A stretch of 64,000 bases of DNA from the IMG/VR virus record IMGVR_UViG_3300009285_003056; one strand, given 5' to 3'. Shown here one piece after another: positions 3,001-59,719 of this stretch. Within the stretch, counting starts at the first letter, position 1. The number at the start of each line of letters is the position of its first letter. The stretch comes from a virus. The translations under genes and the position numbers were made by a program. The notes beneath the pieces were generated by a model. That model saw only the letters and a program-made list of their open reading frames with translations, was not told where the DNA came from and did no database searches.

Positions 3001-4417
3001 CCGCTGCATCGCCCAGGGACAGGACCACCTGATGCTCCGGTGAACCTGCAACCGCCAATCCTTCTGTAGTCAAACTGGGGTTGGCATCCAAAGTGATAGT
3101 TACATGATCCGTTCCTAGCCCCACTATCACGGTAGGCTGGACATGCTGATCCATAGGACCAGCCGGACCATCATAGTTGCCTTCATCATGATAGATGGAA
3201 ACCACATCCGTGATGATAGTGCCTGGAGGCATACATTGGGTCACTGAAAGAGTCGGGGGGGCACCCGAGATAGGCGTTCCACCATCATATGTAGCCCCTG
3301 AAGTTACAGCAGAGAAGTTGGCTAGATTCCAGTGTAGGGCGTCCCCCTCTTCCCACCGATACTGAGAGAAGAACCCTGTAGTGTTCTTGACCACATATTT
3401 CCCGTTGTTGATAACTCCAGGCCCGCCATTCCCAACCACAGTGCCCCCGATTCCAGCAGGAGCATCTAGGGTGGCATCATAGGGGATCGTGAAAATGGTG
3501 GGTGAAATGATGCCATTGACGACCCAGGCACCAATAAGGTTGACGTTCAAGGCTCCTGCAATTGTAATGGGGTCCCCAATCGCAAGACCATGAGCGGTTG
3601 CCGTAGTAATCTGTACGGGGTTGGAATTGTCAGAGGCATTGATGTTTCGAGAGTACGTCGTTCCAACCTGGCGATCCCTTGGGTAGAAGGCAACAACCAC
3701 CCGCTCAGAGACGGGCTGATCCCCGAACCGTCTAGAGACGTGATCAAAGTTTCGTATCAGCACACCCCTATTAGTGGTGCCTGAGACGGGAGCAACACCG
3801 CCAAGGGGACCAGATCGCCCCACCTCATTGCAAACTAGATGCTGTGTGGAGATATCTCCCGAACCATTACCCAAAGTTTGCTTATCTGCCCCATCTATGG
3901 CCCAAGTCTTGTAATTCCCATCCAAAAGGGATTGCATCTGATGCTGCAATTCCATTTTCAAGTCGAAACTAGACGGGGAGACTGAACGTCTCAGGTCCAG
4001 GATGTCCTGGATGTTGATCGCATCGTTGAATGCACCATCGGGTCTATCCGATGTATTGGCTGGAATAGGAACCCCAAGGTGGGGATGAACCGGAACCAAA
4101 GCATGGTTGTAGTGAAGCCCACCATTGGTATTATTCAGGGGATCAAAGTAGTCATCATTCCGTCTGAACACCATGCAAATCGGAATAGCGTACACGAATC
4201 CATCCAACGTACCCAAAGCCACCGCAGATACCGATGAACCATCTCCTGCAATCCAAAGTCCATTATCTACCACACCATAATCCGTCGAATCCGTATTCAA
4301 CCAAGTGGTTGAGTTATCGGCCGGAACAAAGGGATAGAGTGCTACGGGAGCTGCCTGAGATCCCTGAGCTAGAATAGCAGTTGCACCTGCTGCTGAGAAC
4401 CCATCTCTGAAGATCAT
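1..4417 (-). CDS. Large virion structural protein (baseplate/fibre-associated), >1472 aa, 3' end outside the window
   Basis: ATG at 4415-4417 with GAGG upstream and an in-frame TGA six codons further upstream. It begins MIFRDGFSAAGATAILAQGSQAAPVALYPFVPAD...WIAGDGS...GTLDGFVYAIPICMVFRRND and still reads openly at the left edge (...LGDHEYVRAFDAAFSRSTD). I translated only parts; the track lists no terminated ORF in this frame, which is consistent with no stop before base 1. Confidence 0.8.
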   Translation of the reverse strand, partial: MIFRDGFSAAGATAILAQGSQAAPVALYPFVPADNSTTWLNTDSTDYGVVDNGLWIAGDGSSVSAVALGTLDGFVYAIPICMVFRRNDDYFDPLNNTNGGLHYNHALVPVHPHLGVPIPANTSDRPDGAFNDAINIQDILDLRRSVSPSSFDLKMELQHQMQSLLDGNYKTWAIDGADKQTLGNGSGDISTQHLVCNEVGRSGPLGGVAPVSGTTNRGVLIRNFDHVSRRFGDQPVSERVVVAFYPRDRQVGTTYSRNINASDNSNPVQITTATAHGLAIGDPITIAGALNVNLIGAWVVNGIISPTIFTIPYDATLDAPAGIGGTVVGNGGPGVINNGKYVVKNTTGFFSQYRWEEGDALHWNLANFSAVTSGATYDGGTPISGAPPTLSVTQCMPPGTIITDVVSIYHDEGNYDGPAGPMDQHVQPTVIVGLGTDHVTITLDANPSLTTEGLAVAGSPEHQVVLSLGDAADQGSERRIFIEFEVQYPLGSGLTDTPDVQLSPAPTVFPYGRAAGRNQAIFESDQTQRPGDMAEPLGQMLREGYRETALEYVANNAAGGIIIDTFVSRNTDTLIYPRRVYGGRDYTALYAVADGPAGTNPVIDAAASEFGSSSRKIVVTGAIPISAEQTACTVTYYSQDPIPNYGATGYQISCYFRSNAPQTAGTKAGEISNAVSTGTLPTELTVEPLLMDGNLWTGQRGMGNTQDAFPYTAPLDQIPINDGVTVYDPAGNGLTEEWYFAGLAHTSIADFESDTGLLALHPFVQADGTNELVIGGAVDGQATGQAGLEELLTGVVKDGASPPNTFPAGSPYRNWDGKKKPLVPVGIVSVSVASPTNIEVTGHGYASGDIITIAGNTSTVGVGSAAINGDHVITWVDVDNFTVPVNVTVAVNDGTVIREVGCYTDNYTGTEQPFPGQVRLGTDPDAGVTVITGGIPIFGVYNGALGGGTDGNFFDYRLPYLNDYSTATGLKYTPEYYRNRYFLKPAVSLNPTVDLTQAGDYTNLPADYWPHQVARYRHRFTFTTSEEIGSWFLLHFKREQYFEEFIRDGVAPTDDRLYSRNIDTWSDIESLFNIYGDATPTPTWAEQESSSYHVLRANCWMDPATADDVPVFTAPGFTFTHAAGVVDDTMFVSGVQYFVPRRNLVAPGDPAILISDATVTADNLFGAGGNRNSYQSRHESSILAFLSTAPLCFTDQYTVTNPLYTEDDQKVLIPAPTAPPALADTFVLTTGAIVVQGDRLEASFTHDATLRAFFRRPLRQETVHLLNAPDGGQLLTPNPPAVKKILYHSTTDMSVNPKYGNWLSGGLALASTETWDKDVTEVFLDEIYRYSSTWNGYSTPVHLTGPGLAGAAAYIEVPVRAGRAPTIGVNFWDNCSWVQLSSHQSGVPILGVEAQVAGLPLRNPPLTDGAMTPFPAAGRLMFPKYNYTDAGAAYRPSTGDADITVDQPDYSVCLGDHEYVRAFDAAFSRSTD

Positions 4418-4446
4418 TGTGTGAACCTCATTCTTTCAAATGTCGA

Positions 4447-4557
4447 GGTGGGATTTCCGGGAATTCCAAGGGTCTTACATCCTAACCAATCCCCTCTCGA
4501 AAACAGGGACGGAGATCACAAAGCGCAAGAAACCTAAATCAATCCGTCAATCCCACC
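4447..4557 (-). repeat. Intergenic long hairpin element, copy 1 (contains the 56-bp core at 4485-4540)
   Basis: Perfect 9-bp inverted repeat GGTGGGATT (4447-4455) / AATCCCACC (4549-4557). The core ACCAATCCCCTCTCGAAAACAGGGACGGAGATCACAAAGCGCAAGAAACCTAAATC matches 52798-52853 at 53/56 nt. Confidence 0.8.
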
Positions 4558-4599
4558 AAACCTCTACCACTCTACCGTCTATAACGTTTCTAACGACTC

Positions 4600-7500
4600 C
4601 TAGTTAGCAGAGCCCAAGTTCCAACTGTACCGCCCAGCAGCGGGTAGAGCAGAACCCCCCACGAATGTACGGCCGCTACCAGATACAGGAACACCCGTTG
4701 GTTGAGCCGTAGATGCCCCATAAAAGCACGAACCATGAGTGAAGGGCAATCCCACAGGGACACCCCCAATCTCAGGCCCTATGATCTCTTGGGGGCCTGG
4801 AATGAGCGAATTCATCCCGCCCCACGGTCCAAATCTCGAATAGTCCCCACCTACTTCAAAGGTGGCATAGACGTTACCATGTCCATGGGCTGGGGGGACT
4901 ACTGGCACTCCACCGATAGTTGGTGTACCGTTAGGGCTCGGTAATGGGTCACCTACATGTTTCGTCGGCGGGAACTCATCGGCGTAGACATTCAAGATGT
5001 CCACTTCGGTAAGATCCTGTGACACGAGTCCTATTGCATCGGTCAGGACAGATGTCATAGACATCTTCCACTGCAACTCCAGGTTCAAACCCCCCTCACC
5101 GAGGACTTGTGCCTTATCTGCCCCTAATGTGGGATAGAAGATCGATGTCCCTGGCCCAAAGGTGCCCCCTATGAAACCACCCCCAGAAAACAGACGGAAC
5201 GATGCCTGAGAGAACCCCTTCTTGGGCGAATTGAGTTTTTCGTTGAACAAGGCGCCACTCAAATCTATCTCAGCCCATTCATCAAATGGTGTCTTGATGA
5301 GTCCCGTCTGGCCCCCATTGGTGACTTGAGTGAAAGTCAAGTCTGTGTACAGGGCATCTGGGTCCGCCGAGAAATCCCGATATCTATAGGGATTGTTGAA
5401 GATCGTATCTGGAGCACCCAATGGAGTCAGTGGGTTGTTTACCTGAGTGCCAAACTGCACGGAAGCAACATCTGGGCCTGCCTGATGCATCTGGTAAGGT
5501 GGTGTCCCTTCATTGAGCAAGATGCTAGAGTCCAGAAGGGGCTGCCCCTCCAGGTAAGTCATGGTGATAGGATTACCTGGAGCAAAGACGACTGTGATCG
5601 GAACATGATCCCCCGAGAAGGAAACCTCATTGCCTTCTGAATCAGGGACCAAAGAGATCAACTGTAGAGTGGGATCAAATGTCCAGAAAGTGGATGAAAT
5701 GAGTTGCCCATTGTCTATGACAGAGAATACCCTTGACGCATTGATTCTTGTGGGAGTCAGAGTGACGTGCTTATTGTCCAGAGATGTGATCACCACATTC
5801 TCTGGGGTAACATCCCTTGTCTGTTCCGCCGAAGTAATGACACTGTACTGGTTGAAAACCATGTGTTCGGCTGAACGATAGTCCGTATCTTTCCAGTTGT
5901 AGATACGATAACGGACTTCCTTCCACCGCTGCTGACTCAAGGATTTGGGGTCCAGAGACCCAAAGCTTACTGACCCGAAAGTCTGTGCTGTAGTTACTCT
6001 AGGTATCCATTGGGTCTCGACACGAATCCAAGCGGCGGATGGCTCTGTAATGTCAGTAGCAAAGTCCCCAGTAAAGAAAGGCGGTAGCGGCAAATCCGGC
6101 CGGAAGACAGATACTCCCCACCCTGCATCCCAATGGATACGCACATCCATCTGACTTCGCCAGTCCATCTCTTCGATGATAGCGGATGGAGACGAGTTCA
6201 ACTCATCTGTCACATCGGTACGTGGTATCTGCCAGGAATCTATGTCAGAAAGAGACCCACCCAGCCAGACCCCAATCGTTCTTTTGGCGTCCAGAGGTGG
6301 GGCCATGTGGTAGTGAACGTAGTCCCATAGAGTGGTAACGGAATCCGACTCGCACCCAAAGGCCACATCGTTGTGGACCGAGTAGGCATCGAAAAGGGCC
6401 AATCCTGTTGGGGGGTAGAGCACATCGTCAATGTAAAGCAGAACGTTTGACGCTTCCCAGTCAATCAGGACTCGATACGTATGGAACCCACCATCTGCCC
6501 AATTGAAAGTGTAGTCTTGAAGAGTTGGGCCGCTGGAGATGACGTTGGTGAAAGATACTACAGCAGTGGCCCCCACTTTCCGTAAGGTCAGGTTAACCAA
6601 CTTGTTGTCGAACCCATCTCCAGCCGAACCACTCAAATAGATGCCCGTGTAGGCATTGGCAGAGAACGTGGTATCTGTCTTAAACCGTGCTTCAAGGACA
6701 CGACTCTTGGGAATCGGGGGTGTCACCCCTGTCAAATCAATTGTACCCCGATAACCCCCCACGGAGCTTAAGGTGAGAGTCTTTATATCCACCCGTGCAG
6801 TAGGTACAGCAGTTGTGGCCAACCATAGGGTCGGATTCAACTCCCATGCCCGAGTTGGGTCATCCGTAGGCACATACAAACACGACGCCGAAACGGATGG
6901 GGCATCAACCAATCTACGGGGCAGCACCCCAAAAGCTTCTCGATAGAGCAAAGTGCCTAAAAGAACTTGCCGATTGGTGTTCTGTACTATTACCTGTAGG
7001 TCTCCCGACCCAAGGGTTCCCGAATCCACTTGGAAAGTGGTGTCTACATCGACATTGATTCCCGGTTGGATGAAGGGTTCGATACGAGCATACCCATAAG
7101 AGAAATCTTGCTGAGTGGATTCAGCTGTATGTTTCAATAGGAGTCGATTGGTCGGCCCCTCAATCTCATCGTACCCGAAGCCTTGCGTCCTGAACCATTC
7201 AGAGTTTGGGTCTTCCCTTGGGATGTCACTCATCTCAGAGGCTACAACCAGGCCCCTCCCATGGATAGCCCTTTGATCCGGCTGCACCCCATATCGGAAG
7301 AAAGACCACGTAGAGTTGTTAGTAGCCCAAGTGGAAAGGGACCCCCAAAACGCCTGTCCGTCTCCATCCGCTAAGAGCATCAAGTCAGTCTGTGCTGGAT
7401 CAGGATAGGGGGTAGCCTTTGTCAATGACAGGAATGTCCCCGAAATATCCCCACTGACATAGAGGGTGCAAGTCCCCAATTTGGGATTGGCTGTGATCCG

Positions 7501-10104
7501 GTAAGTTAGGGGCTCTGAGAACACCACCTCGAAGTAGGTATCAAAGTATCTGTTCCCCCACCAATTGGGGTCAGCCGGGAAAGCACCTGAAATCGTGACA
7601 GTCGAATACCCATCGGATTGGACAGTAACAGAAGCCAATGTGTAGACACCTGTTTGGCTTCCCACGATGATCTGGAAACGATCCCCTGCAGACAGTCCCG
7701 TAGGGAGATTGGCAGTAAGAGCCTTGAAGGATGTGGTTGACAGTATTTCTATGGCAACCTTGGGGCCAACTTCCCAGGATGCAAACTCTTGGGGCTTTGT
7801 GGCGTCCTTCAACAAACCAACATGTTGGACACCATTCAGAACCAGACAACCCATGAGGAAAATTCTGCGGTTGTCATGGATACCAAATCCCACACCCGTG
7901 AAGACTCCATGAGGAACGTAAGAGTTGACCTTGAACCTACCTGCTACCACCGTGGCAGAAGGGAAAGTCAGATCAACTTCTCTGTACCAGACAGCAGCCG
8001 TTCCGACCCCATAGGAACCCGATTCGGTATCAATGACCGTATATGTCCCTGCCCCAACGTCAACATGCCCCAGATCCTCACCTAAAAGCGTCCATGGGGA
8101 ATTGGCATCTGTAGGGAGAGTCAACCCATCGAAAGATACAGAAGTCGGATTGGGGATAGTCTCAAATCCAGGGACTGCTACAGAATGGGGGTTCTGGTTG
8201 AATAAGAGCAGTGTGGGATTGTTCATAGCGGCAGTATATGCCCTGTCCAACGCCATGAACCGATGCCCAATCAACAGAGGTTCTGGTCTGTCTACTGGCC
8301 CCATGACGAGTCGCATGGGGAAGGGCATCTGATCCGGACACCCCTTGGGGTGGGTCAAATCCTGTATCTGCTCACCATGTGCCGGAGGGTAGGTATGCCC
8401 CCCTGGGAAACTCCACTGATTGAACACAGACCCAATGGTGTTGTAACCGCCCATTGCGAAAATGGGGTTCAGCATCCATTTGTAGTCCACAGTGACCGTC
8501 ATGGCCCCAGGGACCATCAGCGGAATTGGGATTACGGTCTCGATCTTCCCAATATACGGATTGACGGCTCGTACCTCTACTGCAACCCCATTGACTCGTA
8601 CAGTAACGTCATTCTTGGTCGCTGGGGTTGGGTCACCCCAATCCTTGGTGAGAGGACCATGTTCTGTCAACAAGGCGTCCCTAGCTAAGAGCCCTGATCC
8701 TGCTAGAGTGCTGAGACTTCCGTGAAGGAAGTTCCATGCTGAAGACCACACGGTATCACTGGCAGTCACTGTTGCAAACAGGAGCTTGAAGCCCGCCAAC
8801 TCATAACCAGCCAAGAGAGTCAGAGAGATGCCGGAGAAGGAACCGCCCCCGATGAAAGATGCTATTGCTGTAGTGACGAAAGGAACCCCATTCATAAGGA
8901 ATGTGTAGGTGGATGCTTGTTGGTTCCTGACGATCGAAAGGGTCTTTGCCCCCCCCGTGCTCCAAGTCACAGCATACGTGCCCAACCCTGTGATACTGAT
9001 TGCATCAGCCCCTGCTACTCGTGTGAGACGAATAGCCCCTACAGCATCGGTTCCGTCATCTGCTAATATCTCAGCAAAGGGCAGCCCATTCTGGAGCAAT
9101 GGGAAAATCTGCATCCCAGCTGGATTGAACTCTATGTCCATCCGATAAGTAGATGTGTTTGTGACTTTCCCTGTACTGTCCCCAAATTGCCACCCGTAGG
9201 CATTGGCCAGCAATTTGGAGAGAGTGATGTATCCGCCCCCTACAGAAGTTGAACCAGTTCCTATAGTTGTACCTATAAAGGTGGTCGCTGCACTTGGAAG
9301 GTAAGTACCGTCATAATCGAAAGCTTCTGCCTGAGTGACCTCACAGGCATAATTGAGTGCCGTCATACCCTTAACAGACAGGAGCACTCTTGAAGCGTCC
9401 CCCAAATAGGGGTGGGTCACAGTTACTGCCTCTAGGTCCACAGGATAGGCAGGGGTCGAAGTAAAAGTGAAGTTGGTTAGAGTTGTGATCCCTGCATGGA
9501 GCATATCCTGAGCAAAATCCAGAAGAACTGTGTTCCCTGAAAGTGCCGTGGCTATATAAGACGGGGGTTCCCCTAACGCCAAGAGAACCACTTTGTTCGA
9601 CTGGTGGTAAATGACATTGAAAGGATCAGCAGGGTTCTCTACCACCAGAGGGGGGATCACCATTGGATTCCCACTGATGTCTTTGATTCCCTGGACCACT
9701 CGGATTCGATAGACACCTCCGAGAGTGGTTCCCGAGTGGTCTACATAGACGGAAAGGGCACCTGATGATGTGATCCCGGCATAGACATCAACTGCACTTA
9801 CTGTTGCCACTGAGACAGATTGAACAGTTACAGTAGCTCCACCAAAGATAGGCTCGATTGCATAAGAAGTCGTAGCCAATAGATTGGCATCTGCCAGACT
9901 CATAGGCTCAGAGAAGAATAACTCGACCCTAAATCCTGTCTGACAGACTGCCGTGGTAGCAATGGGTGCTATGGTATCTACGGAGCCATAAGAATCTACT
10001 CCATAGGAATCCCCACCATAACCGGAATCCACAGTGAAGGGATCGCCTGGACCGAGACCACTACCAAATCCACTGATACCGAACGGTGATAGCCCAAAAG
10101 CCAT
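4600..10104 (-). CDS. Very large virion structural protein (~1834 aa) with N-terminal Ig-like domains and probable beta-sandwich/lectin-like domains; baseplate wedge or fibre
   Basis: Long ORF. The start is reassigned to MAFGLSPFG at 10104 because GAGGAG lies just upstream, after the stop of the previous gene. APIATTAVCQTGFRVELFFSEPM... resembles an Ig-like (Big) fold, the protein is rich in beta-forming residues, and it lies downstream of the baseplate genes. Confidence 0.65.
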   Translation of the reverse strand: MAFGLSPFGISGFGSGLGPGDPFTVDSGYGGDSYGVDSYGSVDTIAPIATTAVCQTGFRVELFFSEPMSLADANLLATTSYAIEPIFGGATVTVQSVSVATVSAVDVYAGITSSGALSVYVDHSGTTLGGVYRIRVVQGIKDISGNPMVIPPLVVENPADPFNVIYHQSNKVVLLALGEPPSYIATALSGNTVLLDFAQDMLHAGITTLTNFTFTSTPAYPVDLEAVTVTHPYLGDASRVLLSVKGMTALNYACEVTQAEAFDYDGTYLPSAATTFIGTTIGTGSTSVGGGYITLSKLLANAYGWQFGDSTGKVTNTSTYRMDIEFNPAGMQIFPLLQNGLPFAEILADDGTDAVGAIRLTRVAGADAISITGLGTYAVTWSTGGAKTLSIVRNQQASTYTFLMNGVPFVTTAIASFIGGGSFSGISLTLLAGYELAGFKLLFATVTASDTVWSSAWNFLHGSLSTLAGSGLLARDALLTEHGPLTKDWGDPTPATKNDVTVRVNGVAVEVRAVNPYIGKIETVIPIPLMVPGAMTVTVDYKWMLNPIFAMGGYNTIGSVFNQWSFPGGHTYPPAHGEQIQDLTHPKGCPDQMPFPMRLVMGPVDRPEPLLIGHRFMALDRAYTAAMNNPTLLLFNQNPHSVAVPGFETIPNPTSVSFDGLTLPTDANSPWTLLGEDLGHVDVGAGTYTVIDTESGSYGVGTAAVWYREVDLTFPSATVVAGRFKVNSYVPHGVFTGVGFGIHDNRRIFLMGCLVLNGVQHVGLLKDATKPQEFASWEVGPKVAIEILSTTSFKALTANLPTGLSAGDRFQIIVGSQTGVYTLASVTVQSDGYSTVTISGAFPADPNWWGNRYFDTYFEVVFSEPLTYRITANPKLGTCTLYVSGDISGTFLSLTKATPYPDPAQTDLMLLADGDGQAFWGSLSTWATNNSTWSFFRYGVQPDQRAIHGRGLVVASEMSDIPREDPNSEWFRTQGFGYDEIEGPTNRLLLKHTAESTQQDFSYGYARIEPFIQPGINVDVDTTFQVDSGTLGSGDLQVIVQNTNRQVLLGTLLYREAFGVLPRRLVDAPSVSASCLYVPTDDPTRAWELNPTLWLATTAVPTARVDIKTLTLSSVGGYRGTIDLTGVTPPIPKSRVLEARFKTDTTFSANAYTGIYLSGSAGDGFDNKLVNLTLRKVGATAVVSFTNVISSGPTLQDYTFNWADGGFHTYRVLIDWEASNVLLYIDDVLYPPTGLALFDAYSVHNDVAFGCESDSVTTLWDYVHYHMAPPLDAKRTIGVWLGGSLSDIDSWQIPRTDVTDELNSSPSAIIEEMDWRSQMDVRIHWDAGWGVSVFRPDLPLPPFFTGDFATDITEPSAAWIRVETQWIPRVTTAQTFGSVSFGSLDPKSLSQQRWKEVRYRIYNWKDTDYRSAEHMVFNQYSVITSAEQTRDVTPENVVITSLDNKHVTLTPTRINASRVFSVIDNGQLISSTFWTFDPTLQLISLVPDSEGNEVSFSGDHVPITVVFAPGNPITMTYLEGQPLLDSSILLNEGTPPYQMHQAGPDVASVQFGTQVNNPLTPLGAPDTIFNNPYRYRDFSADPDALYTDLTFTQVTNGGQTGLIKTPFDEWAEIDLSGALFNEKLNSPKKGFSQASFRLFSGGGFIGGTFGPGTSIFYPTLGADKAQVLGEGGLNLELQWKMSMTSVLTDAIGLVSQDLTEVDILNVYADEFPPTKHVGDPLPSPNGTPTIGGVPVVPPAHGHGNVYATFEVGGDYSRFGPWGGMNSLIPGPQEIIGPEIGGVPVGLPFTHGSCFYGASTAQPTGVPVSGSGRTFVGGSALPAAGRYSWNLGSAN

Positions 10105-15036: not shown

Positions 15037-16077
15037 TTATCTCCAATGCCATCTAAGGGCATTATACGACACAAATTTGCACTCGGATGGACGCACCACT
15101 TTGGTGAGTCGCTTCCCAGTGCCTATTGAATGCAAGCTGATTCTCTCGTTTGACGTGCCGCCTACATACGCAAGTCCGTACCGGGGGTGTTGCACGAGTG
15201 TTCCTCTCCTGAAACCCATCGATCTGGTACCACCATGTGATCTTCTCAAACCACCTTTAGCTGGTACCTCCAAATGCAATGCCCGTCTCCGGTAATCCAG
15301 AGGGGCTATGCACAATAAGCGCCCCGATGTAGGCTGTCGTTTTATTCCCAGCCCATAAAGGGCTAGGACAAAACTGTCCACACAATGGGCATCAAAGACT
15401 TCGTCCATCTTCCTTGACGTCTTTTTCAGCCCAAGGTCATCCCTCAAAGCCTTAGTCTCATATCCCGCAATCAAAACCAAGGGGAGATTCAGGACACCAA
15501 TTTGATTAGCAAAATAGGTCTTTCCTGCCTCCAAAGGCGAGAATGACCGATTCCACTTATGTTGGCCTTTCTTGGTGGTTGCCTTGATGTCCTCAATTAC
15601 CACCTTGGCGATTGGGTAGACTCTCATCAACGCTTTGACTATGGTGAGTTTCCAATCCCATCGGGCCTTCGTTGACGGCGGGATACGATCCTGTGGCATT
15701 GACCGATTGCTACGATTAACCCGGCAAGGCGTATTCCTGCCCCGCCGTGCCCGGCGCAGTATCGCCCTGCTCTCTAACTTTTCCTTGATCTTGGTTTTGG
15801 CATCCAACTGAATGTGAATTAGGTCTGTGAGTTCTGTAAGAACGGACACGCCTTCTTTCTTTGAACCTGGATCAACCCCAATGACCACAGGTTGGATCAC
15901 ATAACCAGATGGCTCTACATTGAGTCGGGCACAGAAGATACCGAGTTCGTTCACGAACGGGGTTGCCTTCCGTGTCGAGACCCACAACTCCACCCGCCTT
16001 CTTCGTGCTGGCATAAGAGGTTTGCCTTGAGATGAGACCACAGGGATTCTCTTGGCGAGTGATGGAAAAGACTTCAT
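15037..16077 (-). CDS. isrB: IsrB-family RNA-guided nickase (RRXRR/PLMP domain, split RuvC, no HNH), ~346 aa
   Basis: PLMP motif (IPVVSSQGKPLMPARRRR), RuvC-I IGVDPGSK, Arg-rich bridge helix LESRAILRRARRGRNTPCR, RuvC-II VVIEDIK and RuvC-III FDAHCVDS. No HNH/CxxC insert lies between RuvC-II and III, and the size fits IsrB rather than IscB. The 49 extra N-terminal codons in the track correspond to the RNA region. Confidence 0.85.
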   Translation of the reverse strand: MKSFPSLAKRIPVVSSQGKPLMPARRRRVELWVSTRKATPFVNELGIFCARLNVEPSGYVIQPVVIGVDPGSKKEGVSVLTELTDLIHIQLDAKTKIKEKLESRAILRRARRGRNTPCRVNRSNRSMPQDRIPPSTKARWDWKLTIVKALMRVYPIAKVVIEDIKATTKKGQHKWNRSFSPLEAGKTYFANQIGVLNLPLVLIAGYETKALRDDLGLKKTSRKMDEVFDAHCVDSFVLALYGLGIKRQPTSGRLLCIAPLDYRRRALHLEVPAKGGLRRSHGGTRSMGFRRGTLVQHPRYGLAYVGGTSNERISLHSIGTGKRLTKVVRPSECKFVSYNALRWHWR

Positions 16078-16079
16078 GC

Positions 16080-16286
16080 CTGTAAGAGCAGCAAGTTTTT
16101 CCATCTTCGCCACTGACCCTGACAGAAGTACAGAGCTTGACGAGCACTCCGTACATGCTTGCCCTGCTGTTGCCGTACCGGCAATAGCTTCGCAGGATTC
16201 AGTTGAGGTTCTAACGGTTTCCATCCCTCCCTCTTAGGCTAATCCCAGTACTCTGAAACCCAATCTTTCAAGTTTCATCCGGAATT
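16080..16286 (-). ncRNA. omegaRNA scaffold of IsrB (5' guide predicted immediately upstream, about 16287-16306)
   Basis: Read on the minus strand: 5' stem AATTCCGG (16279-16286) / CTGGGATT (16241-16248) followed by AGCCTAAG; a 9-bp stem GTACGGAGT/GCTCTGTAC (16128-16154) whose loop TCGTCA can pair with downstream TGGCGA (16107-16112) as a pseudoknot. This arrangement matches IscB/IsrB omegaRNAs as I recall them. Confidence 0.75.
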
Positions 16287-19200
16287 CTCTGTATCCTCGT
16301 CATAAGTCAGAGAGATATCCCCGGCTGTAAGATACTCCACCGCTGTGGTTCGGATATCCTGCACCCCCGTAGACTCCTCAACCTTATAGGTAACTGCATA
16401 CGTATAGTCCGTGGGGTCCCCACCTGTGGGTAACGAAATCAGGACTCGATTCTTGGTCAACAGGACGCCTTGGGCATAGCGTTCGTTCACATCCGTCATG
16501 TCCGGGAAGTCAATCTGGAGTGTGGCATCATCTGAATACCCCGGGATGACTAGCCCGTCATTTCCAACGATGTAGGCATTTCCACTCTGCGCTTTGAGGG
16601 GCATACCCAGAGAGTTCAACGTGCCCGTGAGTAGATTCAAGGCTGTCTCATCCTGTGTGACCCCCCGGAATTCTGTGATTGCCCCGCCCCCATTACTGGT
16701 AGGAGACGACAGTACGTCTTTGATCAGGTACACATCTACCAACGATGTGCCCCAGGCAGTGATCTTCTCCAGATCTCCGCTCTCGCTGGTATCCAATGTC
16801 TCTGCCAGCACCGTAGTCCCAACTGCCCGAGCTACAGTCGTAAGGGGGACCACTACGTAGGAGACTCCCGTAGTCTTCTTGATGGTTTCGATTACATCCG
16901 AAACTCGGAGGGGCGATCCTAAGCCTTTCTTGGCGAACATGGATGTGATGTTGGTTCTGATAGCCCGATCCACTACAGACGGATCAGAACCCTTCAAGAG
17001 AACCACCGTTGCCCCCACATCTACTAGAGTCTTGATCGCCTGCTTGACCACCACATCGGCAGTCAATCTCCGCTGTGGCTCCAGGTCAGCCTGGACGATA
17101 GACACTAGGGCATTGGATCGGTAAGCAACAGTGAAGTTCTCGTCATGCTCATAGTCGATCAGAAGAGACTGTCCAGAAGTGATTGTGCTCGTCTCCGTCC
17201 GTTGAATGCCGATTGCTGCCACACTGGGGTCACTGGGAACGATGATCCGATAATCAGGGGTGAGTACTCCAGTGGCAACAGGCTGATACTGGACTGTTCG
17301 CCCCACATTCCAAACTTCGATGGTGAGGATATTAGACCCAAAGAAATTCAGGTACTCTACGTAGTCCCCTAGGATGACATGAGTTTCCCCGGTCACAGTG
17401 ATAATCTGCCCGATTCGCCCAGAGGCAGTGGGGGAGTCGACCTGAATGTAATCGTCTGCCATTGAGGAGAGGCCCAAGAGAAGAGGGTTATCTTGTCTGT
17501 AAAGGGCATAGGTATCCGGGTCCACCGTACCCGTAGCTCCTGTTTCCCCAATCAGAGAGACCAGAGCAGTCACGGGCTGCCTGGACATAATGTGTTTGTT
17601 GCTGGTCCGATACCTGTAATCCCCCTGGAGTACATCTGTGAGCGTGACATTAGCAGGATCATTGTAGGCACTAGATAACTGAATGGTATCAAAAGAAGGG
17701 TAAGTGACTCCTGTAAGGCTGAACCACATACCAGACGTGACACTACGGAAACCCAACGGCGGCGTATTGGCTGGGAAATCCAACATCTCGACTAGAGGGT
17801 TCGACGGTGTCAATGTCGGATAGGTGCCCACAACAGGTACGGCTCTGAAGGTCAAATCTTGGGGGTCCCCCACGATCTCAAAATTGACCCCATAGGCGAT
17901 CTCGTAGGTGAATGCAAAGGTGTCTGAAACCGTGGCTGAATTTTCCCCACGTACCCAAATGTCGACCTTGCCCCCGATGTGCCGCCCCAATGTGGAGTCA
18001 TAATCCCTCTTCATCAGGGCATCCCCACTGGGGATTACATTGACACCTGAAACCCCCGCCATATTGACACAGGCTTCCGTGTAACCTTGTCGAGTCCCAC
18101 CATCCAGCCCCGTGAGAGCCCCCTGGCACCGTACAGCCAGCTCCCGATTGGACTCCCTGTTGTACCCGCCATACGTCTTTGCTTCGTTGGTAACGAAAAC
18201 ACCTGTGATACCACGAACACCCGTAATTTGCCCAGCGGGCACATTTCCGCCAGTCCCCACTTCTTCCGCCTGGATGAAAGCCCTGACGGAATATCTACCC
18301 GTGGCAGCATTGTAGAAAGACGCAATGTTGGAGATACTGATCTCGGCGGCAGAAGATGTCCGAAATAGAACAGAGCCACTATAGGCAATGGTACCAATCG
18401 GAATGGGTATACTCCGACTGGGCCGTTTGGTCGTGTAAAATGTGGCCTCACCCTTAGCCAATTTTCCTAGTAGCCTGGACTTCCCGTAATTGGACGCCAA
18501 CTTCTCGAAGATAGAGTCGATGACTGTCTGTACATCGTTCAGGTTGGACATCCTGAATGCCTGTGCTAAGGCAATCTTATAGTTGGACCGATCCGGGGCA
18601 ATCGAGAATCCCGTGAAGTTGGGGTCATCTATAGCCAAGAGCGTGGAGAATGACTGTGCCTTATGGATGAAATCCAGTATGAACCTAACTCGTTCTGCCT
18701 CTGTGGAGAACGGATCCAGGAAAGTATCCCGCAACACCGATCCCGGCTGTGTGGACACCCCAGGGTTCGACCTATAAATGGACACAACCCCATCCTTCAC
18801 GATTTGGGGTCGAGTTACCATGGGGAAGGAACCCACCGAAGTCGTAATCCTAAGAGGATATCCGGGGATCTCCATGGACATCGGGGACTCAACCTCTACT
18901 GCAATCGTAGAGTCATAGTAGACAGCCGTTACAGTGTAGTAGATGGGCTCTGTCTGAGGCGTAGACGCCAACTCTCCTACAGGGATAGCTGGATAAGTAG
19001 ACGTGGTGTCTGCATTCCGATCATGAAAGAAGTAGTAGGTAGACGTATCCTTCACAGAGGAGACAGTTGTATGGATACGTATCTTCGTGACGGTCTCGGG
19101 AATGTTCACCCGCTCGTTGAAATCCATCTCCAAGGTGGTTCCGTTCCGATCCTCTTGCGACCCTTGGATACGAAAGAGCTGTGGGTCTGCAAGTGGAATT

Positions 19201-19790
19201 CCGTTGGTATCTACTGCGACCGTGGCATCAACGTCTAACTCCCCCAACTCGCTCTCATCTTCTCCTTGTACGCTCTCCAGGGTTGTAATTGTATTGACAT
19301 TGATCCGATGGTATCCTGTAGAACCGCCTCCGGTCGCTGTAGCAGCGTAGAAATTGTATCCTGTGACTAGTGTACTGTCGATGCCACTTACACCCACCTT
19401 CACGAGCCCATCCATCTTCTCTACCGTAATCCCTGTGGGGGCCTGGACCACTAGGTTCACATCGTTTGCTTGAACCAATCTTACTGTGACAGTGGCTTCT
19501 CCAGATGTATCCCCTGTCGTGTTGATGGAACGAACTTTGATGGTGTTGTCCCCAGGCAACAATTGCAACCCATCTGGATACTTGGATGGGTTGGGGACTG
19601 TGAAGGAGGCCCCCTCGAAAGTAATCAGATCAGGATCGTCCTCGAAGGCACTCCCAAATGCTGATATTTGCATGTAGATGGTGTCAGCATCTATAGACCC
19701 CGTGAAGAATCGAGTGGAGACGGTGGTGTGGAAAATGAACGTCTCCCGATAGACTCCATCAGGACCAAGGAATTTGGGTGTCGTCGCCAT
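16275..19790 (-). CDS. Baseplate J-like wedge protein (T4 gp6 / P2 gpJ family) with N-terminal Ig/FN3-like extension, 1171 aa
   Basis: AKGEATFYTT...IPIGTIAY...VRAFIQAEEVGTGGNVPAGQIT...VTNEAKTYGGYNRESNRELAVRCQGALTGLDGGTRQGY is the Baseplate_J signature. The gene follows the gp25-like gene. Confidence 0.85.
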   Translation of the reverse strand: MATTPKFLGPDGVYRETFIFHTTVSTRFFTGSIDADTIYMQISAFGSAFEDDPDLITFEGASFTVPNPSKYPDGLQLLPGDNTIKVRSINTTGDTSGEATVTVRLVQANDVNLVVQAPTGITVEKMDGLVKVGVSGIDSTLVTGYNFYAATATGGGSTGYHRINVNTITTLESVQGEDESELGELDVDATVAVDTNGIPLADPQLFRIQGSQEDRNGTTLEMDFNERVNIPETVTKIRIHTTVSSVKDTSTYYFFHDRNADTTSTYPAIPVGELASTPQTEPIYYTVTAVYYDSTIAVEVESPMSMEIPGYPLRITTSVGSFPMVTRPQIVKDGVVSIYRSNPGVSTQPGSVLRDTFLDPFSTEAERVRFILDFIHKAQSFSTLLAIDDPNFTGFSIAPDRSNYKIALAQAFRMSNLNDVQTVIDSIFEKLASNYGKSRLLGKLAKGEATFYTTKRPSRSIPIPIGTIAYSGSVLFRTSSAAEISISNIASFYNAATGRYSVRAFIQAEEVGTGGNVPAGQITGVRGITGVFVTNEAKTYGGYNRESNRELAVRCQGALTGLDGGTRQGYTEACVNMAGVSGVNVIPSGDALMKRDYDSTLGRHIGGKVDIWVRGENSATVSDTFAFTYEIAYGVNFEIVGDPQDLTFRAVPVVGTYPTLTPSNPLVEMLDFPANTPPLGFRSVTSGMWFSLTGVTYPSFDTIQLSSAYNDPANVTLTDVLQGDYRYRTSNKHIMSRQPVTALVSLIGETGATGTVDPDTYALYRQDNPLLLGLSSMADDYIQVDSPTASGRIGQIITVTGETHVILGDYVEYLNFFGSNILTIEVWNVGRTVQYQPVATGVLTPDYRIIVPSDPSVAAIGIQRTETSTITSGQSLLIDYEHDENFTVAYRSNALVSIVQADLEPQRRLTADVVVKQAIKTLVDVGATVVLLKGSDPSVVDRAIRTNITSMFAKKGLGSPLRVSDVIETIKKTTGVSYVVVPLTTVARAVGTTVLAETLDTSESGDLEKITAWGTSLVDVYLIKDVLSSPTSNGGGAITEFRGVTQDETALNLLTGTLNSLGMPLKAQSGNAYIVGNDGLVIPGYSDDATLQIDFPDMTDVNERYAQGVLLTKNRVLISLPTGGDPTDYTYAVTYKVEESTGVQDIRTTAVEYLTAGDISLTYDEDTENSG

Positions 19791-19793
19791 ACA

Positions 19794-20864
19794 TTACCCC
19801 AGGGAAAGGCCATTGGTGCCAGGGAGTGCTGTCACTCCAGGAACCGTGTAGACGATGGAGATTGAAACAGGATCGGACGATGCGTTCCGAAGAATCACGT
19901 CCACCACATACATAGTGGGGTTGTTCTTATCCGAGGTGGTTCGAACCGTAACGACTTCGTACAGTCGCTCCTTGAACGTCACTTGCTGATACTTGGCCTG
20001 TTCTGCCTGTATCTTCTGGAAGGTCTTCAGTGCTCGACGAACCTCCTCAGAAAGAGATGCCGCCACATTCCCGACCGCCTTGGACCCTATCTTGTTCTGG
20101 ATGGACGTGCCATAGAAAGTGTGATACGGATTTGAACCTTGTGTGGTTAGAAGCAGCTTCTGTGCTGCCTGGACCAACAGGTTCTCATTCGTGATCATTG
20201 CCATATTGCCGTGTTGATCGAATCTATAGTCATTTTCGATCCCGTACCCACGGCACCGCAAACACTTGTACCTGTCCACTGTATAGGAAACCGTCAGAGT
20301 CGGATTCGATTGTAGAGGTTCTACAAATTTGAGACTCTTGGTGAGCGAACCAGTAGGCTTAGCCAATGTCCAGCCCGGATATACCTTGTGCCCTCGTGCC
20401 CCAAGTTGTCCCGTAAACCCAAGAGCCGATGCTGCCAACCCCGAAACCTGAATGACAGAGGTTGACCCAGTGCTATCGGAGTCTGTCAACTTCAAACATC
20501 CGTTAGCATCTTCTACTGCGATTGATGAAGCTTGGGCCTTCAAGGCAACAATCACATCCTGGACACTCAGACGCTCCGTAGTGCTATACGGCAATGTTAT
20601 AGATAGCGTTTCCTTGGATGAAATCACAGAGAATGTCTGCTCGTTACGGATGATCCTGAAGGGGCCAGAAAAAGCCCCGATAAGGGAGGCATTCGTACTA
20701 AGGCCCTGACTAGGGATTGTCACGCTATCGTTTGCTCTGAGCTGGATAAAGCCCCCTGCCACAGGCTGTTTGGTGGGTAGAGACATCCGATCAGAGCCGA
20801 GGGTAATAACCTCCTCAACCGTAAGATGTGGGCAACTGAACGCTAATCGGACATCTTGGGACAC
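19794..20864 (-). CDS. Baseplate wedge / sheath-initiator protein, gp25/GPW-like C-terminal domain with N-terminal extension (356 aa, GTG start)
   Basis: The C-terminus ENDYRFDQHG...NENLLVQAAQKLLLTTQGSNPYHTFYGTSIQNKIG...LSEEVRRAL...VDVILRN is gp25-like, and the gene lies directly upstream of baseplate J. Confidence 0.75.
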   Translation of the reverse strand: MSQDVRLAFSCPHLTVEEVITLGSDRMSLPTKQPVAGGFIQLRANDSVTIPSQGLSTNASLIGAFSGPFRIIRNEQTFSVISSKETLSITLPYSTTERLSVQDVIVALKAQASSIAVEDANGCLKLTDSDSTGSTSVIQVSGLAASALGFTGQLGARGHKVYPGWTLAKPTGSLTKSLKFVEPLQSNPTLTVSYTVDRYKCLRCRGYGIENDYRFDQHGNMAMITNENLLVQAAQKLLLTTQGSNPYHTFYGTSIQNKIGSKAVGNVAASLSEEVRRALKTFQKIQAEQAKYQQVTFKERLYEVVTVRTTSDKNNPTMYVVDVILRNASSDPVSISIVYTVPGVTALPGTNGLSLG

Positions 20865-51595: not shown

Positions 51596-52714
51596 TCATG
51601 GACGCTGCGGCCCCCGAAACTTAGGGTTGGTTCCCCCAGGGACAGGAGTGTTGACAATTACTGGTGCCCTGGGATCTTTTCTGGACCCCTTGGAGTTCAA
51701 CTCCTGTGCATTCCCCATAGTAAACACCGGAACTCCCGCCAAGGTTCCTGTCATGGCCGGTGCAGCTTTAGGGACAATCTCAGCAGCGGGTTTCAATGAA
51801 GCTGTCGGTACAGCATCTGCTCTATTAGCAGCATTCCTAACTTCCATCATTCTTATGGCCCGCGCTCTAGCAAGACGTTCGCCTTCTGCAGCCGCTGCCT
51901 TAACCATCCCCTCCGTATCATCAGAATCAACGAAAGATGAGATGACTTCCGACTGTGGGGGTATGACAGGAGCTTGCACAGGGGGGGCAACATGCTCCGT
52001 TGGTAACGGTCGGGGCATAGAGGGAGGCGCTACAGTCTGTGGGATGACGGGGGGTGCTACTGCAACCGTTGGCACTACAGGAGGTGCTACAGCATCAGTC
52101 TCGACTTCCGGCTCGGGTTCTGTCCCTCTCAATGCCTTCTCTTCAGATGCCTTCTCGTCTTCCAACTCTTTGACCCTAGCCCGGGCTTCCTCCAATTCGG
52201 TTTCCAGATCGGATGGTTCAAATACTACAGCAGCCGCTGCTTCTTTTTCCACACGAGCTAGCAACTCAGTGTACTTCTTGTTCAATGCCGAAACGGCGGT
52301 ATCTGTCCACTTCTTCAGGATCATGTCCCGCAAAGCCTGATGCTTAGGTATCTTGATACTGTTACCATTCTCCAGCTTCTTCCCAATGGCAATGAACTCA
52401 GCATCCCTGAAATCCGTAGAGTCAATCTGGACTAGAGCATAGCTCAGGAGCGCCACACGGAACCGATAGTAGTAGTTGGTCATAATGAGAAGATTGTTCT
52501 CTGGTTCTTCTGGGGCGTCCTTTCCTTTGACAGAAACCACCACTTTAGGTTTCCTACGTGCCTCGTCAGCAAAGAGTTGGACATCCCTATTCTCATGGGG
52601 CAAGAGCACCCGCAAGGTAATCATTGACCCATTGAACTCGAAGGTCAATTCCCCCTTCCCCACATTTGCTACAGCCTGGAATGCTTGGTCAAGACAATTC
52701 AGATCGAGATCCAT
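51596..52714 (-). CDS. Probable tail assembly chaperone (372 aa) with a Pro/Ala/Val-rich low-complexity C-terminal half
   Basis: First gene after the tube gene. GELTFEFNGSMITLRVLLPHENRDV...FRVALLSYALVQID...VSALNKKYTEL resembles tail chaperones. Confidence 0.5.
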   Translation of the reverse strand: MDLDLNCLDQAFQAVANVGKGELTFEFNGSMITLRVLLPHENRDVQLFADEARRKPKVVVSVKGKDAPEEPENNLLIMTNYYYRFRVALLSYALVQIDSTDFRDAEFIAIGKKLENGNSIKIPKHQALRDMILKKWTDTAVSALNKKYTELLARVEKEAAAAVVFEPSDLETELEEARARVKELEDEKASEEKALRGTEPEPEVETDAVAPPVVPTVAVAPPVIPQTVAPPSMPRPLPTEHVAPPVQAPVIPPQSEVISSFVDSDDTEGMVKAAAAEGERLARARAIRMMEVRNAANRADAVPTASLKPAAEIVPKAAPAMTGTLAGVPVFTMGNAQELNSKGSRKDPRAPVIVNTPVPGGTNPKFRGPQRP

Positions 52715-52747
52715 GATGCGAACCCCCTTTGCAGCCCTTAGAATCTA

Positions 52748-52875
52748 GTTTGGATTTTTGTCTCTGAGGAAGGGATCTAAGTGCCCACACATTCTGTACC
52801 AATCCCCTCTCGAAAACAGGGATGGAGAGCACGAAGCGCAAGAAACCTAAATCGAGTCAGGGACAAAACCCAAAC
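52748..52875 (-). repeat. Intergenic long hairpin element, copy 2 (56-bp core at 52798-52853)
   Basis: Outer arms GTTTGGATTTTTGTC (52748-52762) and GACAAAACCCAAAC (52862-52875) are complementary, and the core is 53/56 identical to 4485-4540. Confidence 0.8.
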
Positions 52876-52916
52876 CAGACTCCCCAAGACATCTTGGGCG
52901 AGCCGGATTATCAACA

Positions 52917-53744: not shown

Positions 53745-53857
53745 TGTGTCTTCCTCCAAGAGGGGTGGTAATCTCGACTTCCCGGCTGAACCGGGAAACA
53801 GACCACCATCTACTAGCTAGGCAGGCTATAGAGATGAAAACGAGATGGCTGGGAATG

Positions 53858-54163: not shown

Positions 54164-54178
54164 TTTCACCAACCCCAA

Positions 54179-54244
54179 GATTCACCTAATCACCATACCC
54201 CATTCGAACTAAAATCGAGCATGGGGATGGGTAGTCACCGGATC
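54179..54244 (-). repeat. Intergenic hairpin element, copy 3 (related apical stem)
   Basis: Minus strand CCATCCCCATGCTCGA-TTTTAGT-TCGAATGGGGTATGG, extendable with mismatches. It lies just downstream of the sheath stop. Confidence 0.6.
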
Positions 54245-54285
54245 AGGTATTCTGAGCGAATCGCAACTACTTGAAATCAAAGGAA

Positions 54286-59574: not shown

Positions 59575-59614
59575 GCGAACCTCCAAAGCCCATGAGGATC
59601 AGGACACACACTTT

Positions 59615-59693
59615 TCAAAGCCCAAGAAGAGTTACATCGAATAGGCCAATCCCACGGAGGGGATGGATTCACTACAAACTCACGGGCTATTGA
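59615..59693 (-). repeat. Intergenic hairpin element, copy 4 (related apical stem)
   Basis: Minus-strand nested pairings TCAA/TTGA, AGCCC/GGGCT, GAGTT/AACTC, TGAAT/ATTCG, closed by CCATCCC-CTCCGT-GGGATTGG (59646-59666). It lies just upstream of the sheath gene. Confidence 0.65.
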
Positions 59694-59719
59694 ATCCTTA
59701 TTGACTTCGAGGCGAGGAT

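What the first reader, a model, noticed from the sequence alone, without database searches (positions are those of the whole stretch)
4447..4557. Dispersed 56-bp conserved element at 4.5 kb and 52.8 kb, each copy inside a long rod-like hairpin with different outer arms
4485-4540 and 52798-52853 differ at only 3 of 56 positions, both are intergenic and 48 kb apart. On the transcribed (minus) strand the shared core supplies the 5' arm and apex, while the 3' arms differ in sequence yet still pair in each copy (copy 1: GGTGGGATT/AATCCCACC, TCTTGC/GTAAGA, TGATC/GGTTA; copy 2: GTTTGGGTTTTGTC/GACAAAAATCCAAAC, CTGA/TCAG, GATTTAGG/CTTAGATC). Conserved pairing despite divergent arms points to a selected RNA or DNA structure. 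Candidates are an RNase III-type processing site, a translational operator, a phage small RNA, or a tiny mobile element.
Basis: partly seen in the sequence, partly recalled or inferred. Interest (0 to 1): 0.75.

Follow-up and report, generated by a model that had tools for sequence, protein, structure and literature searches.

The report
Paired RNA hairpins between phage tail genes
Two long, related RNA hairpins lie in gaps between tail genes of a very large groundwater phage, and they most likely control how the tail-gene messenger RNA is cut, stabilised or read; this is a new sequence family of a familiar kind of phage signal.

Summary
The stretches 4485-4540 and 52798-52853 match at 53 of 56 bases. 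They are the only two copies in the window. Each lies inside a long hairpin on the coding (minus) strand (-43.4 and -48.3 kcal/mol, z about -3.3 and -3.5). The plus strand folds less well, because 9 of 41 and 11 of 49 pairs are G.U.

Where the two copies differ, pairing is kept. Of 30 shared pairs, 10 changed on one side, 3 changed on both sides, and none is broken. All 3 substitutions inside the core still pair.

The window is the contractile-tail module of a phage of roughly 0.5 Mb, with all genes on one strand and only about six real gaps. Five gaps hold a sense-strand hairpin. A third hairpin, in front of the sheath gene, has the same bulged top stem.

Nothing matches in Rfam, the phage records, IMG/VR, JGI metagenomes or GTDB genomes, apart from the same phage population. 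There are no transposon features, no sigma-70 promoter and no intrinsic terminator.

Best reading: a cis-acting intercistronic RNA that acts as a processing or stability signal of the RNase III-substrate type, possibly protein-bound. No RNA data exist, so the function is inferred. Copy 1 also borders a strain-variable gene cassette. Interest is moderate.

The parts
4447..4557 (-). Hairpin c1, 111 nt and 41 pairs (9 G.U). It starts 43 nt after the stop of the 1859-aa ORF and ends 29 nt before the ATG at 4417.
   Evidence: Fold: -43.4 kcal/mol, z -3.29. Pair table. Model R1 scores 123.8 bits.
4485..4540 (-). Conserved 56-nt core, copy 1. It comprises the 5' strand of the inner stem plus the complete apical stem-loop.
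   Evidence: 53 of 56 bases identical to 52798-52853.
52747..52876 (-). Hairpin c2, 130 nt and 49 pairs (11 G.U). It lies between the tube-like 280-aa gene and the 372-aa gene, and ends 32 nt before the ATG at 52714.
   Evidence: Fold: -48.3 kcal/mol, z -3.47. Pair table. Model R1 scores 153.6 bits.
52798..52853 (-). Conserved 56-nt core, copy 2.
59615..59692 (-). Hairpin h59 in the leader of the sheath-like 1762-aa gene. Its top stem (59646-59666) is the same 7+8-nt bulged stem as in c1 and c2, with a 6-nt loop instead of a 12-nt loop.
   Evidence: Exact motif search gives 3 hits, all on the minus strand and all intergenic. Fold: -24.6 kcal/mol, z -2.35. Three natural SNPs are compatible with the fold.
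54193..54231 (-). Apical stem of hairpin h54, just after the sheath gene. It is a looser relative of the shared stem, with the bulge shifted by one pair.
   Evidence: Found by the relaxed motif scan. Fold of 54184-54282: -28.4 kcal/mol, z -1.78. Membership is weak.
53766..53812 (-). Hairpin g53 in the leader of the tube-like gene. It is unrelated in sequence but sits in the same kind of position, starts GGUGG and ends CCACC like c1.
   Evidence: Fold: -24.6 kcal/mol, z -5.03, against -16.1 kcal/mol on the plus strand.
4579..4596 (-). Motif TCGTT-N8-TATAG, 20 nt upstream of hairpin c1. The only other exact copy is at 53826-53843, 17 nt upstream of hairpin g53. It is a candidate promoter-like box.
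   Evidence: 2 exact matches, both in minus-strand gaps. The motif was chosen post hoc, so this is only a lead.
4403..4417 (-). First five codons (MIFRD) of the gene downstream of c1. Identity with the variant contigs ends exactly at 4403.
   Evidence: L018 is 99.4% identical to window 4403-8806 and unrelated beyond. The same junction appears in a second independent assembly.

Best explanation
c1 and c2 are paralogous structured segments of the sense-strand tail-gene transcript. h59 shares only their top stem. Each folds into a rod of 41-49 interrupted base pairs between two cistrons and leaves the next gene's Shine-Dalgarno sequence free.

The most likely mechanism is that the rod is a target for a double-strand-specific endoribonuclease of the host RNase III type, a barrier to exonucleases, or both. 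Cleavage or stalling there would split the long tail message. The hairpin ends left behind would give neighbouring genes different mRNA lifetimes and outputs: sheath and tube versus chaperone-like gene, and proximal versus distal fibre gene.

The identical bulged apical stem in three hairpins is probably the specific recognition feature for a protein.

What is shown: the repeat, the folds, the strand asymmetry, the kept pairing, the intercistronic positions and the restriction to one lineage. What is inferred: co-transcription, cleavage, and any protein partner.
For: (1) The folds are significant and strand-specific. G.U pairs make up 9 of 41 and 11 of 49 pairs. On the antisense strand or in a cruciform these would be A.C mismatches.

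(2) Pairing is kept through change. There are 3 double and 10 single compensating differences and no broken pair in 30 shared pairs. The 3 substitutions inside the core keep pairing: U.G to C-G, A-U to C-G by a register shift, and G.U to A-U.

(3) The exact top stem CC[A/G]UCCC...GGGAUUGG occurs 3 times, all on the sense strand and all in gaps. I estimate about 0.005 expected by chance per window. Its loop is 12 nt or 6 nt long. That fits a hairpin and does not fit a fixed-spacing DNA site for a dimer.

(4) All genes are on one strand, and only about six gaps of 50 nt or more exist in 64 kb. Five of them hold a sense-strand hairpin. No sigma-70-type promoter or intrinsic terminator is found at them.

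(5) The hairpins bracket the probable high-copy genes. The 1762-aa protein resembles sheath families and the 280-aa protein resembles tube families (lead-level evidence).

(6) An ideal RNase III substrate is about 22 bp. Internal loops direct single-strand cuts that leave stabilising 3' hairpins, and T7 uses five such signals in one polycistronic RNA (PMC3867540).

(7) Three population SNPs in h59 are a C-to-U opposite G and two changes in loops.
Against: No transcript data exist: no RNA run holds the sequence. The covariation rests on two sequences and does not pass the shuffle control (68 of 500).

A plain dsRNA-substrate role does not explain why the 5' arm and apex are 95% identical while the rest drifted. 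That pattern suggests an extra sequence-specific role or gene conversion.

Related phages (sheath about 49% identical) lack the element. Some carry ordinary terminator-like hairpins after the sheath gene instead. There is therefore no deep conservation.

The host and its RNases are unknown.
Confidence: 0.5

Rival explanations
1. The element is a protein-binding regulatory hairpin of the nut/put or translational-operator type. A phage or host protein recognises the conserved 5' stretch plus the bulged apical stem-loop on the nascent RNA. It then alters read-through, or feeds back on translation of tail genes.
For: The conserved unit is exactly a linear 28-nt stretch plus a complete stem-loop. 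This recalls boxA plus boxB of lambda nut, from my own knowledge. The same bulged stem recurs in three leaders with different loops and flanks. There are two full copies per genome region, as with nutL/nutR and putL/putR. The sequence constraint exceeds what structure alone needs.
Against: The 5' stretch is paired with a 3' arm in both copies, and the outer stem shows compensated changes, so the long rod appears to be selected. There are no Rfam hits. No terminators were found downstream for such a site to override. No candidate binding protein is identified.
Confidence: 0.17
2. The element is a DNA-level regulatory or recombination cassette of the PeSL type. The intergenic block (promoter-like box, hairpin, ribosome site) acts as a homology patch. 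Gene conversion homogenises it, and recombination at it swaps neighbouring genes. The 56-nt identity is a recent conversion tract rather than functional constraint.
For: In variant contigs from two independent assemblies, identity runs through c1 and stops 15 nt into the next gene. Unrelated 210-aa and 235+-aa genes follow. The sharp edges of the 56-nt identity inside a diverged hairpin look like a conversion tract. Gaps share parts in mosaic fashion: the core, the apical stem and the TCGTT-N8-TATAG box. PeSLs are composite promoter plus stem-loop motifs that mediate such swaps (PMC2839356, PMC4122927).
Against: No sigma-70-like promoter is present in the motif. There are only two copies, 48 kb apart in direct orientation, so recombination between them would delete the baseplate genes. 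The element lies in a conserved structural module, not a hyperplastic region. The breakpoint lies beyond the element, not within it. G.U asymmetry and compensated pairs point to selection on RNA.
Confidence: 0.13
3. The element is a miniature mobile element: a MITE, a REP-like sequence, or an end remnant of an IS200/IS605 element, inserted twice.
For: It is a dispersed repeat inside a long inverted repeat. A bulged T in a stem recalls the hairpins recognised by IS200/IS605 TnpA and by REP-associated transposases (my own knowledge). An IsrB element sits in the same window.
Against: There are only two copies in the window. In four metagenome runs only two flank types join the core. No direct repeats flank either hairpin. 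The outer arms differ between copies but are compensated, which is unlike fresh insertions. There is no similarity to the IsrB element. There are no matches in 596 Gb of genomes, IMG/VR or JGI metagenomes outside this phage population.
Confidence: 0.04
4. The core encodes a small leader peptide. A TTG at 4528 or 52841 opens a frame (MRFV(I/L)S(V/I)PVFERGLV...) in which the 3 core substitutions are one synonymous and two conservative changes.
For: Reading the sequence: the frame is open across the core in both copies, and a TGA lies two or three codons upstream in both. The changes are TTT/TTC (F/F), ATC/CTC (I/L) and GTC/ATC (V/I).
Against: The start is a TTG buried in the stem with only a weak AGG upstream. 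The frames end after 17 codons in one copy and 50 in the other. Three substitutions are too few to test a coding pattern. The same substitutions are equally explained by kept pairing.
Confidence: 0.03

Closest known systems
RNase III processing signals of phage T7 (five sites in the early polycistronic mRNA) and similar phage dsRNA signals
   Same: Both are interrupted hairpins with at least two helical turns of dsRNA, placed between cistrons of a long one-strand transcript. Both recur within one genome with related sequences. Their expected effect is to separate messages and leave stabilising hairpin ends (PMC3867540).
   Different: The stems here are about twice as long (41-49 pairs). Only half of the hairpin is conserved in sequence. 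There is no sequence similarity to T7 sites. Cleavage is untested and the host is unknown.
PeSL promoter-early stem-loop cassettes of T4-type phages (PMC2839356, PMC4122927)
   Same: Both are repeated intergenic blocks that contain a stem-loop and end at the ribosome site and start codon of the next gene. Both are associated with gene replacement between close strains; here this holds for c1.
   Different: PeSLs carry a strong sigma-70-like promoter and a terminator-type stem, occur in many copies, and sit in hyperplastic early regions. Here no such promoter or terminator is found, there are two copies, the module is late and structural, and the signs point to selection on RNA.
T4 gene 18-gene 19 (sheath-tube) intergenic region
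   Same: Both have hairpins in the short spacer next to the sheath and tube genes of a contractile-tail phage, upstream of a free Shine-Dalgarno sequence. The T4 spacer of 116 nt holds a hairpin right after gene 18 and a second one in the gene 19 leader.
   Different: T4 has two TATAAATA late-promoter boxes in that spacer (read; the consensus is from my own knowledge). No such box is present here. The T4 hairpins are short and are not copies of one another.
Lambda nut and HK022 put antitermination RNAs (own knowledge, not tested here)
   Same: All are two similar copies per genome of a cis-acting RNA element in operon leaders, with a conserved linear part next to a conserved stem-loop.
   Different: nut and put are short or two-stem elements, not a 110-130-nt rod. 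No boxA/boxB consensus is present in both copies, and there is no Rfam match.
REP/BIME intercistronic hairpins of enterobacteria (own knowledge)
   Same: Both are intercistronic palindromes that can stabilise upstream mRNA segments and set differential expression within operons.
   Different: REPs are 20-40 nt, occur in hundreds of copies, and are mobilised by RAYT transposases. Here there are two long copies in a phage.

Membership tests
RNase III substrate / T7-type processing signal | Hairpin with about 20-22 bp or more of mostly regular double helix | tested here: met
   41 and 49 pairs in c1 and c2. Folds at -43.4 and -48.3 kcal/mol, z about -3.3 and -3.5. Criterion taken from PMC3867540.
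RNase III substrate / T7-type processing signal | Lies between cistrons of one polycistronic transcript | tested here: inconclusive
   The intercistronic position on the single coding strand is shown, and no promoter or terminator was detected. Co-transcription itself is not shown.
RNase III substrate / T7-type processing signal | Is cleaved by RNase III at a defined site | not testable with these tools
   No RNA run holds the sequence. An in vitro cleavage assay is needed.
PeSL cassette | Contains a sigma-70-like early promoter (-35, -10, AT-rich upstream part) | tested here: not met
   No promoter-like sites in 4300-4750 or 59450-59850, and none at c2.
PeSL cassette | Stem-loop acts as a terminator or attenuator; many copies in hyperplastic regions | tested here: not met
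   No T-run follows any hairpin. There are two copies only, in a conserved tail module.
PeSL cassette | Sits at insertion, deletion or replacement boundaries between close relatives | tested here: met
   Met for c1 only. Identity with L018 and L056 ends 15 nt into the downstream gene.
nut/put antitermination RNA | Family sequence and structure consensus (boxA plus boxB, or the two put stems) | tested here: not met
   No Rfam family reaches its threshold, and none scores notably even at E up to 10. A 6-nt boxA-like word occurs in copy 2 only (sequence reading).
MITE / REP / IS200-IS605 end | Terminal repeats with target-site duplication, many copies, or likeness to a resident IS | tested here: not met
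   No flanking direct repeats. Two copies only. No similarity to the IsrB element at 15037-16306.
CRISPR repeat-like solitary unit | Match to a CRISPR direct-repeat model | tested here: not met
   The best match is CRISPR-DR57 at 14.4 bits, against a gathering score of 39, with E 1.6.

The most novel reading that the evidence does not exclude
The bulged apical stem shared by c1, c2 and h59 is the operator of a lineage-specific RNA-binding factor encoded by the phage. One candidate, without any test, is the zinc-ribbon protein encoded immediately upstream of h59. This factor would couple the output of the sheath, tube and fibre genes to tail assembly. The conserved 5' arm would be a second, single-strand recognition part used before the 3' arm is transcribed. 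That would be an assembly-feedback RNA regulon in a half-megabase phage.
Probability: 0.1. Interest if true: 0.6.

Novelty: new variant of a known kind. Interest (0 to 1): 0.36.

Why it matters
Almost nothing is known about how phages of about 0.5 Mb control expression of their very large structural operons. This window gives a small, well-defined set of sense-strand RNA hairpins that bracket the probable highest-copy tail genes. Two of them are true paralogues with kept pairing. They can be tested directly by end-mapping and RNase assays. One of them also marks the edge of a distal tail-gene cassette that differs between co-occurring strains. That is relevant to how host-range genes are exchanged. 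It is not a new principle: structured intercistronic signals are common in phages.

Tried and rejected
- **Rfam.** Nothing at gathering thresholds over the whole window. With E up to 10 on L018, c2 and c1, only noise appeared: mir, RsmY, CRISPR-DR57 and sR60, all far below threshold.
- **Phage GenBank records.** No match to the c1 region.
- **Exact-pattern scans, 23-24-nt apex.** IMG/VR gave 0 hits. GTDB genomes gave 0 hits. JGI metagenomes gave 1 hit, which is the same phage population.
- **Exact-pattern scans, 18-nt 5' arm.** 16 genome hits and 8 viral hits, all by chance: 6-15 of 38 bases agree outside the seed.
- **Covariance model R1 from c1 and c2.** It finds only c1 and c2 in the window with filters off. 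It finds only the c1 copy of L018 in 179 kb of loci, and nothing in five partial related genomes. It does not detect h59.
- **Apical motif in the four of those related records that are held.** 0 hits.
- **Relatives by protein.** The 372-aa protein has only three distant homologues. It has none in IMG/VR, and neither does the 1472-aa protein. Relatives found by sheath similarity (about 49% identical) have unalignable spacers and no repeated intergenic family.
- **Own genome.** It is not held. The nearest record, G001, covers only about 19.0-34.9 kb of the window.
- **Walking out of the window by exact protein look-up.** Every scaffold ends at the same dNK gene.
- **RNA evidence.** No RNA holder is listed among the sequencing runs.
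- **RNase III genes (PF14622, PF00636).** None in five fragmentary related records, which is uninformative.
- **Flanking genes.** They are not paralogues, so the repeat is not a by-product of gene duplication.
- **Alignment of the apical regions.** MAFFT misaligned h59, so no three-member model was built.
- **Sheath identity.** PHROGs and PDB sequence searches gave nothing. Only language-model likeness supports it.

Full report
**Context.** All long ORFs of the 64-kb window lie on the minus strand. Pfam finds four families:
- Baseplate_J (16275-19790)
- a weak sheath-initiator match (19794-20864)
- an RRXRR/IsrB nuclease (15037-16224)
- an actin-like Volactin protein (61357-62376)

The C-terminal part of the 1762-aa protein (54286-59574) resembles tail-sheath families. 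The 280-aa protein (52917-53759) resembles tail-tube families. The 372-aa protein weakly resembles tail-assembly chaperones. These three rest on protein-atlas likeness only and are lead-level evidence.

The nearest held virus record is a 15.9-kb fragment, 99% identical, rated 3% complete. A relative of 257 kb is rated 49% complete. The phage is therefore of the order of 0.5 Mb. Its DNA is found in groundwater and soil metagenomes of several studies. The window is thus the contractile-tail and baseplate module of a very large uncultured phage.

**The observation.**
- The repeat is real: 53 of 56 bases match, there are two copies, and chance expectation is near zero.
- Each copy is in a true intergenic gap.
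- Each lies within a long hairpin on the sense strand. c1 (4447-4557) folds at -43.4 kcal/mol, z -3.29. c2 (52747-52876) folds at about -48 kcal/mol, z -3.47.
- The antisense strands fold 8-13 kcal/mol worse, because 9 of 41 and 11 of 49 pairs are G.U.
- The core holds the 5' strand of the inner stem and the whole apical stem-loop. The inner 3' strands differ in sequence, yet they pair with the same core nucleotides in both copies.

**Is the pairing selected?** RNAalifold on the two hairpins gives 30 shared pairs. Of these, 17 are unchanged, 10 are changed on one side (mostly U-A versus U.G and G-C versus G.U), 3 are changed on both sides (G-C to U-A twice and A-U to G-C once, all in the outer stem), and none is broken. 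Sliding the partners by 1-3 columns drops pairing from 100% to 28-62%. The three substitutions inside the core all keep a pair.

With only two sequences the shuffle control is not significant (68 of 500). The covariation is therefore suggestive, not proven.

The flanking genes are not paralogues, so the repeat is not a side effect of a gene duplication.

**A wider set.** The exact pattern CC[A/G]TCCC, 3-25 nt, GGGATTGG occurs three times in the window. All three are on the minus strand and in gaps: c1, c2 and 59646-59666, in the sheath leader. My estimate of the chance expectation is about 0.005 per window. In all three the 3' strand carries one extra U. The loop is 12 nt in two cases and 6 nt in the third.

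The fourth stem named in that note (54193-54231) is only a loose relative, with the bulge shifted.

On the coding strand there are only about six gaps of 50 nt or more in 64 kb. Five of them hold a hairpin that is more stable on the sense strand: c1, c2, h59 (z -2.35), h54 (z -1.78) and g53 (z -5.03). None is followed by a T-run, and no sigma-70-type promoter is detected at them. In each case the Shine-Dalgarno sequence lies outside the hairpin.

**Population data.**
- Contigs of four metagenome runs laid on 52400-60000 show no differences in the c2 gap.
- They show three differences in h59: a C-to-U opposite G, and two changes in internal loops, one of which lengthens a helix.
- The only foreign contig ends that join the core at 52798 and 52853 carry the c1 flanks. 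Within what those assemblies hold, the core therefore has two contexts.

**A variable boundary.** The single metagenome match to the apex (L018) is 99.4% identical to window 4403-8806, including a 100% identical c1. It then becomes unrelated 15 nt into the downstream gene. ORFs of 210 aa and 235+ aa replace the 1472+-aa ORF. The same junction occurs in a second, independent assembly and in short contigs of other samples, so it is not a chimera. c1, together with the ribosome site and the first five codons, therefore forms the fixed edge of an exchangeable distal gene cassette. I could not tell whether this is an allele or a second locus in the same genome.

**Distribution.**
- No Rfam family matches.
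- There is no match in phage records, IMG/VR or GTDB genomes, except chance hits to an 18-mer.
- A covariance model of the two hairpins finds nothing else in the window, in 179 kb of loci, or in five partial related genomes.
- Relatives with about 49% identical sheath proteins have different spacers. In two of them an ordinary terminator-like perfect hairpin follows the sheath gene.

The element is thus specific to this phage lineage, while having a hairpin next to the sheath gene is common.

**Mechanism.** The evidence favours an RNA-level, sense-strand, cis-acting element. It rests on the strand asymmetry from G.U pairs, the kept pairing, the variable loop length with an identical bulged stem, and the position between cistrons with a free ribosome site.

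The rod shape and position match RNase III-type processing and stability signals. An ideal substrate has about 22 bp, internal loops give single cuts that leave stabilising 3' hairpins, and T7 uses five such signals in one long mRNA (PMC3867540). I commit to this as the most likely mechanism, at about 0.5 for the broad reading of an intercistronic processing or stability hairpin.

It does not explain why the 5' arm and apex are kept at 95% identity. Either a protein reads that part (the operator or nut-like rival), or a short gene-conversion tract homogenised it (the PeSL-like rival).

PeSLs of T4-type phages are the closest described repeated intergenic cassettes tied to gene swapping (PMC2839356, PMC4122927). 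Their defining promoter and terminator are not found here, so I do not file the element as a PeSL. The T4 sheath-tube spacer shows the ordinary layout of hairpins plus TATAAATA boxes. No such box occurs here.

A mobile element is unlikely, and a leader peptide cannot be excluded but has little support.

**Verdict.** This is a real, structured, lineage-specific pair of intercistronic RNA hairpins, with a third partial member. It is a new sequence family of a familiar kind of phage signal. Its function is inferred, not shown. Interest is moderate.

Noticed in passing
window 4403-4417; L018 1-1368; L056: Downstream of c1, co-occurring strains (or a second locus) carry unrelated 210-aa and 235+-aa genes in place of the 1472+-aa ORF. 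Only the first five codons are shared. The junction is seen in two independent assemblies.
   Followed up: partly
window 4579-4596 and 53826-53843 (minus strand): The exact motif TCGTT-N8-TATAG occurs twice only, both times 17-20 nt upstream of an intergenic hairpin (c1 and g53). It may be a phage promoter box. The motif was chosen post hoc.
   Followed up: partly
window 55378-56111 and 56560-57067: Within single metagenome runs, two contig versions of parts of the sheath gene coexist, differing at 107 of 734 and 78 of 508 positions. The flanks are nearly invariant. These look like hypervariable inserted domains of the giant sheath protein.
   Followed up: no
L023 1-636; L027-L030 ends: Scaffolds from several independent assemblies all stop at the same point in a deoxynucleoside-kinase gene, about 3 kb beyond the right end of the window. 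This may be a genome end or a repeat that breaks assembly. The tail operon seems to start at a divergent gap next to a thymidine-kinase gene (L023 1641-1776).
   Followed up: no
window 59720-60169 (minus strand): A 149-aa protein with an N-terminal FmdB-type zinc ribbon (Pfam Zn_ribbon_8, E 1e-7, just under the cut-off) is encoded directly upstream of the sheath leader hairpin. ORFs of 149-153 aa hold the same position in relatives L019 and L021.
   Followed up: no
window 59574-59590 and 52712-52727: The sheath gene and the 372-aa gene share nearly the same translation start context (GG, then GGTTCGCAT, then ATG). The gene after c1 has a similar one (GAGGTTCACACAATG).
   Followed up: no
L020 11814-11891; L021 11848-11925: In two related huge phages a near-perfect GC-rich hairpin followed by U-rich sequence lies just after the sheath gene (z -3.2 and -7.5). 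This is an ordinary terminator-like signal where this phage has h54.
   Followed up: no
window 4478-4528 and 52689-52841 (minus strand): A TTG-initiated frame runs through the core in both copies, for 17 and 50 codons. The three core substitutions are synonymous or conservative in it. This is probably chance.
   Followed up: partly
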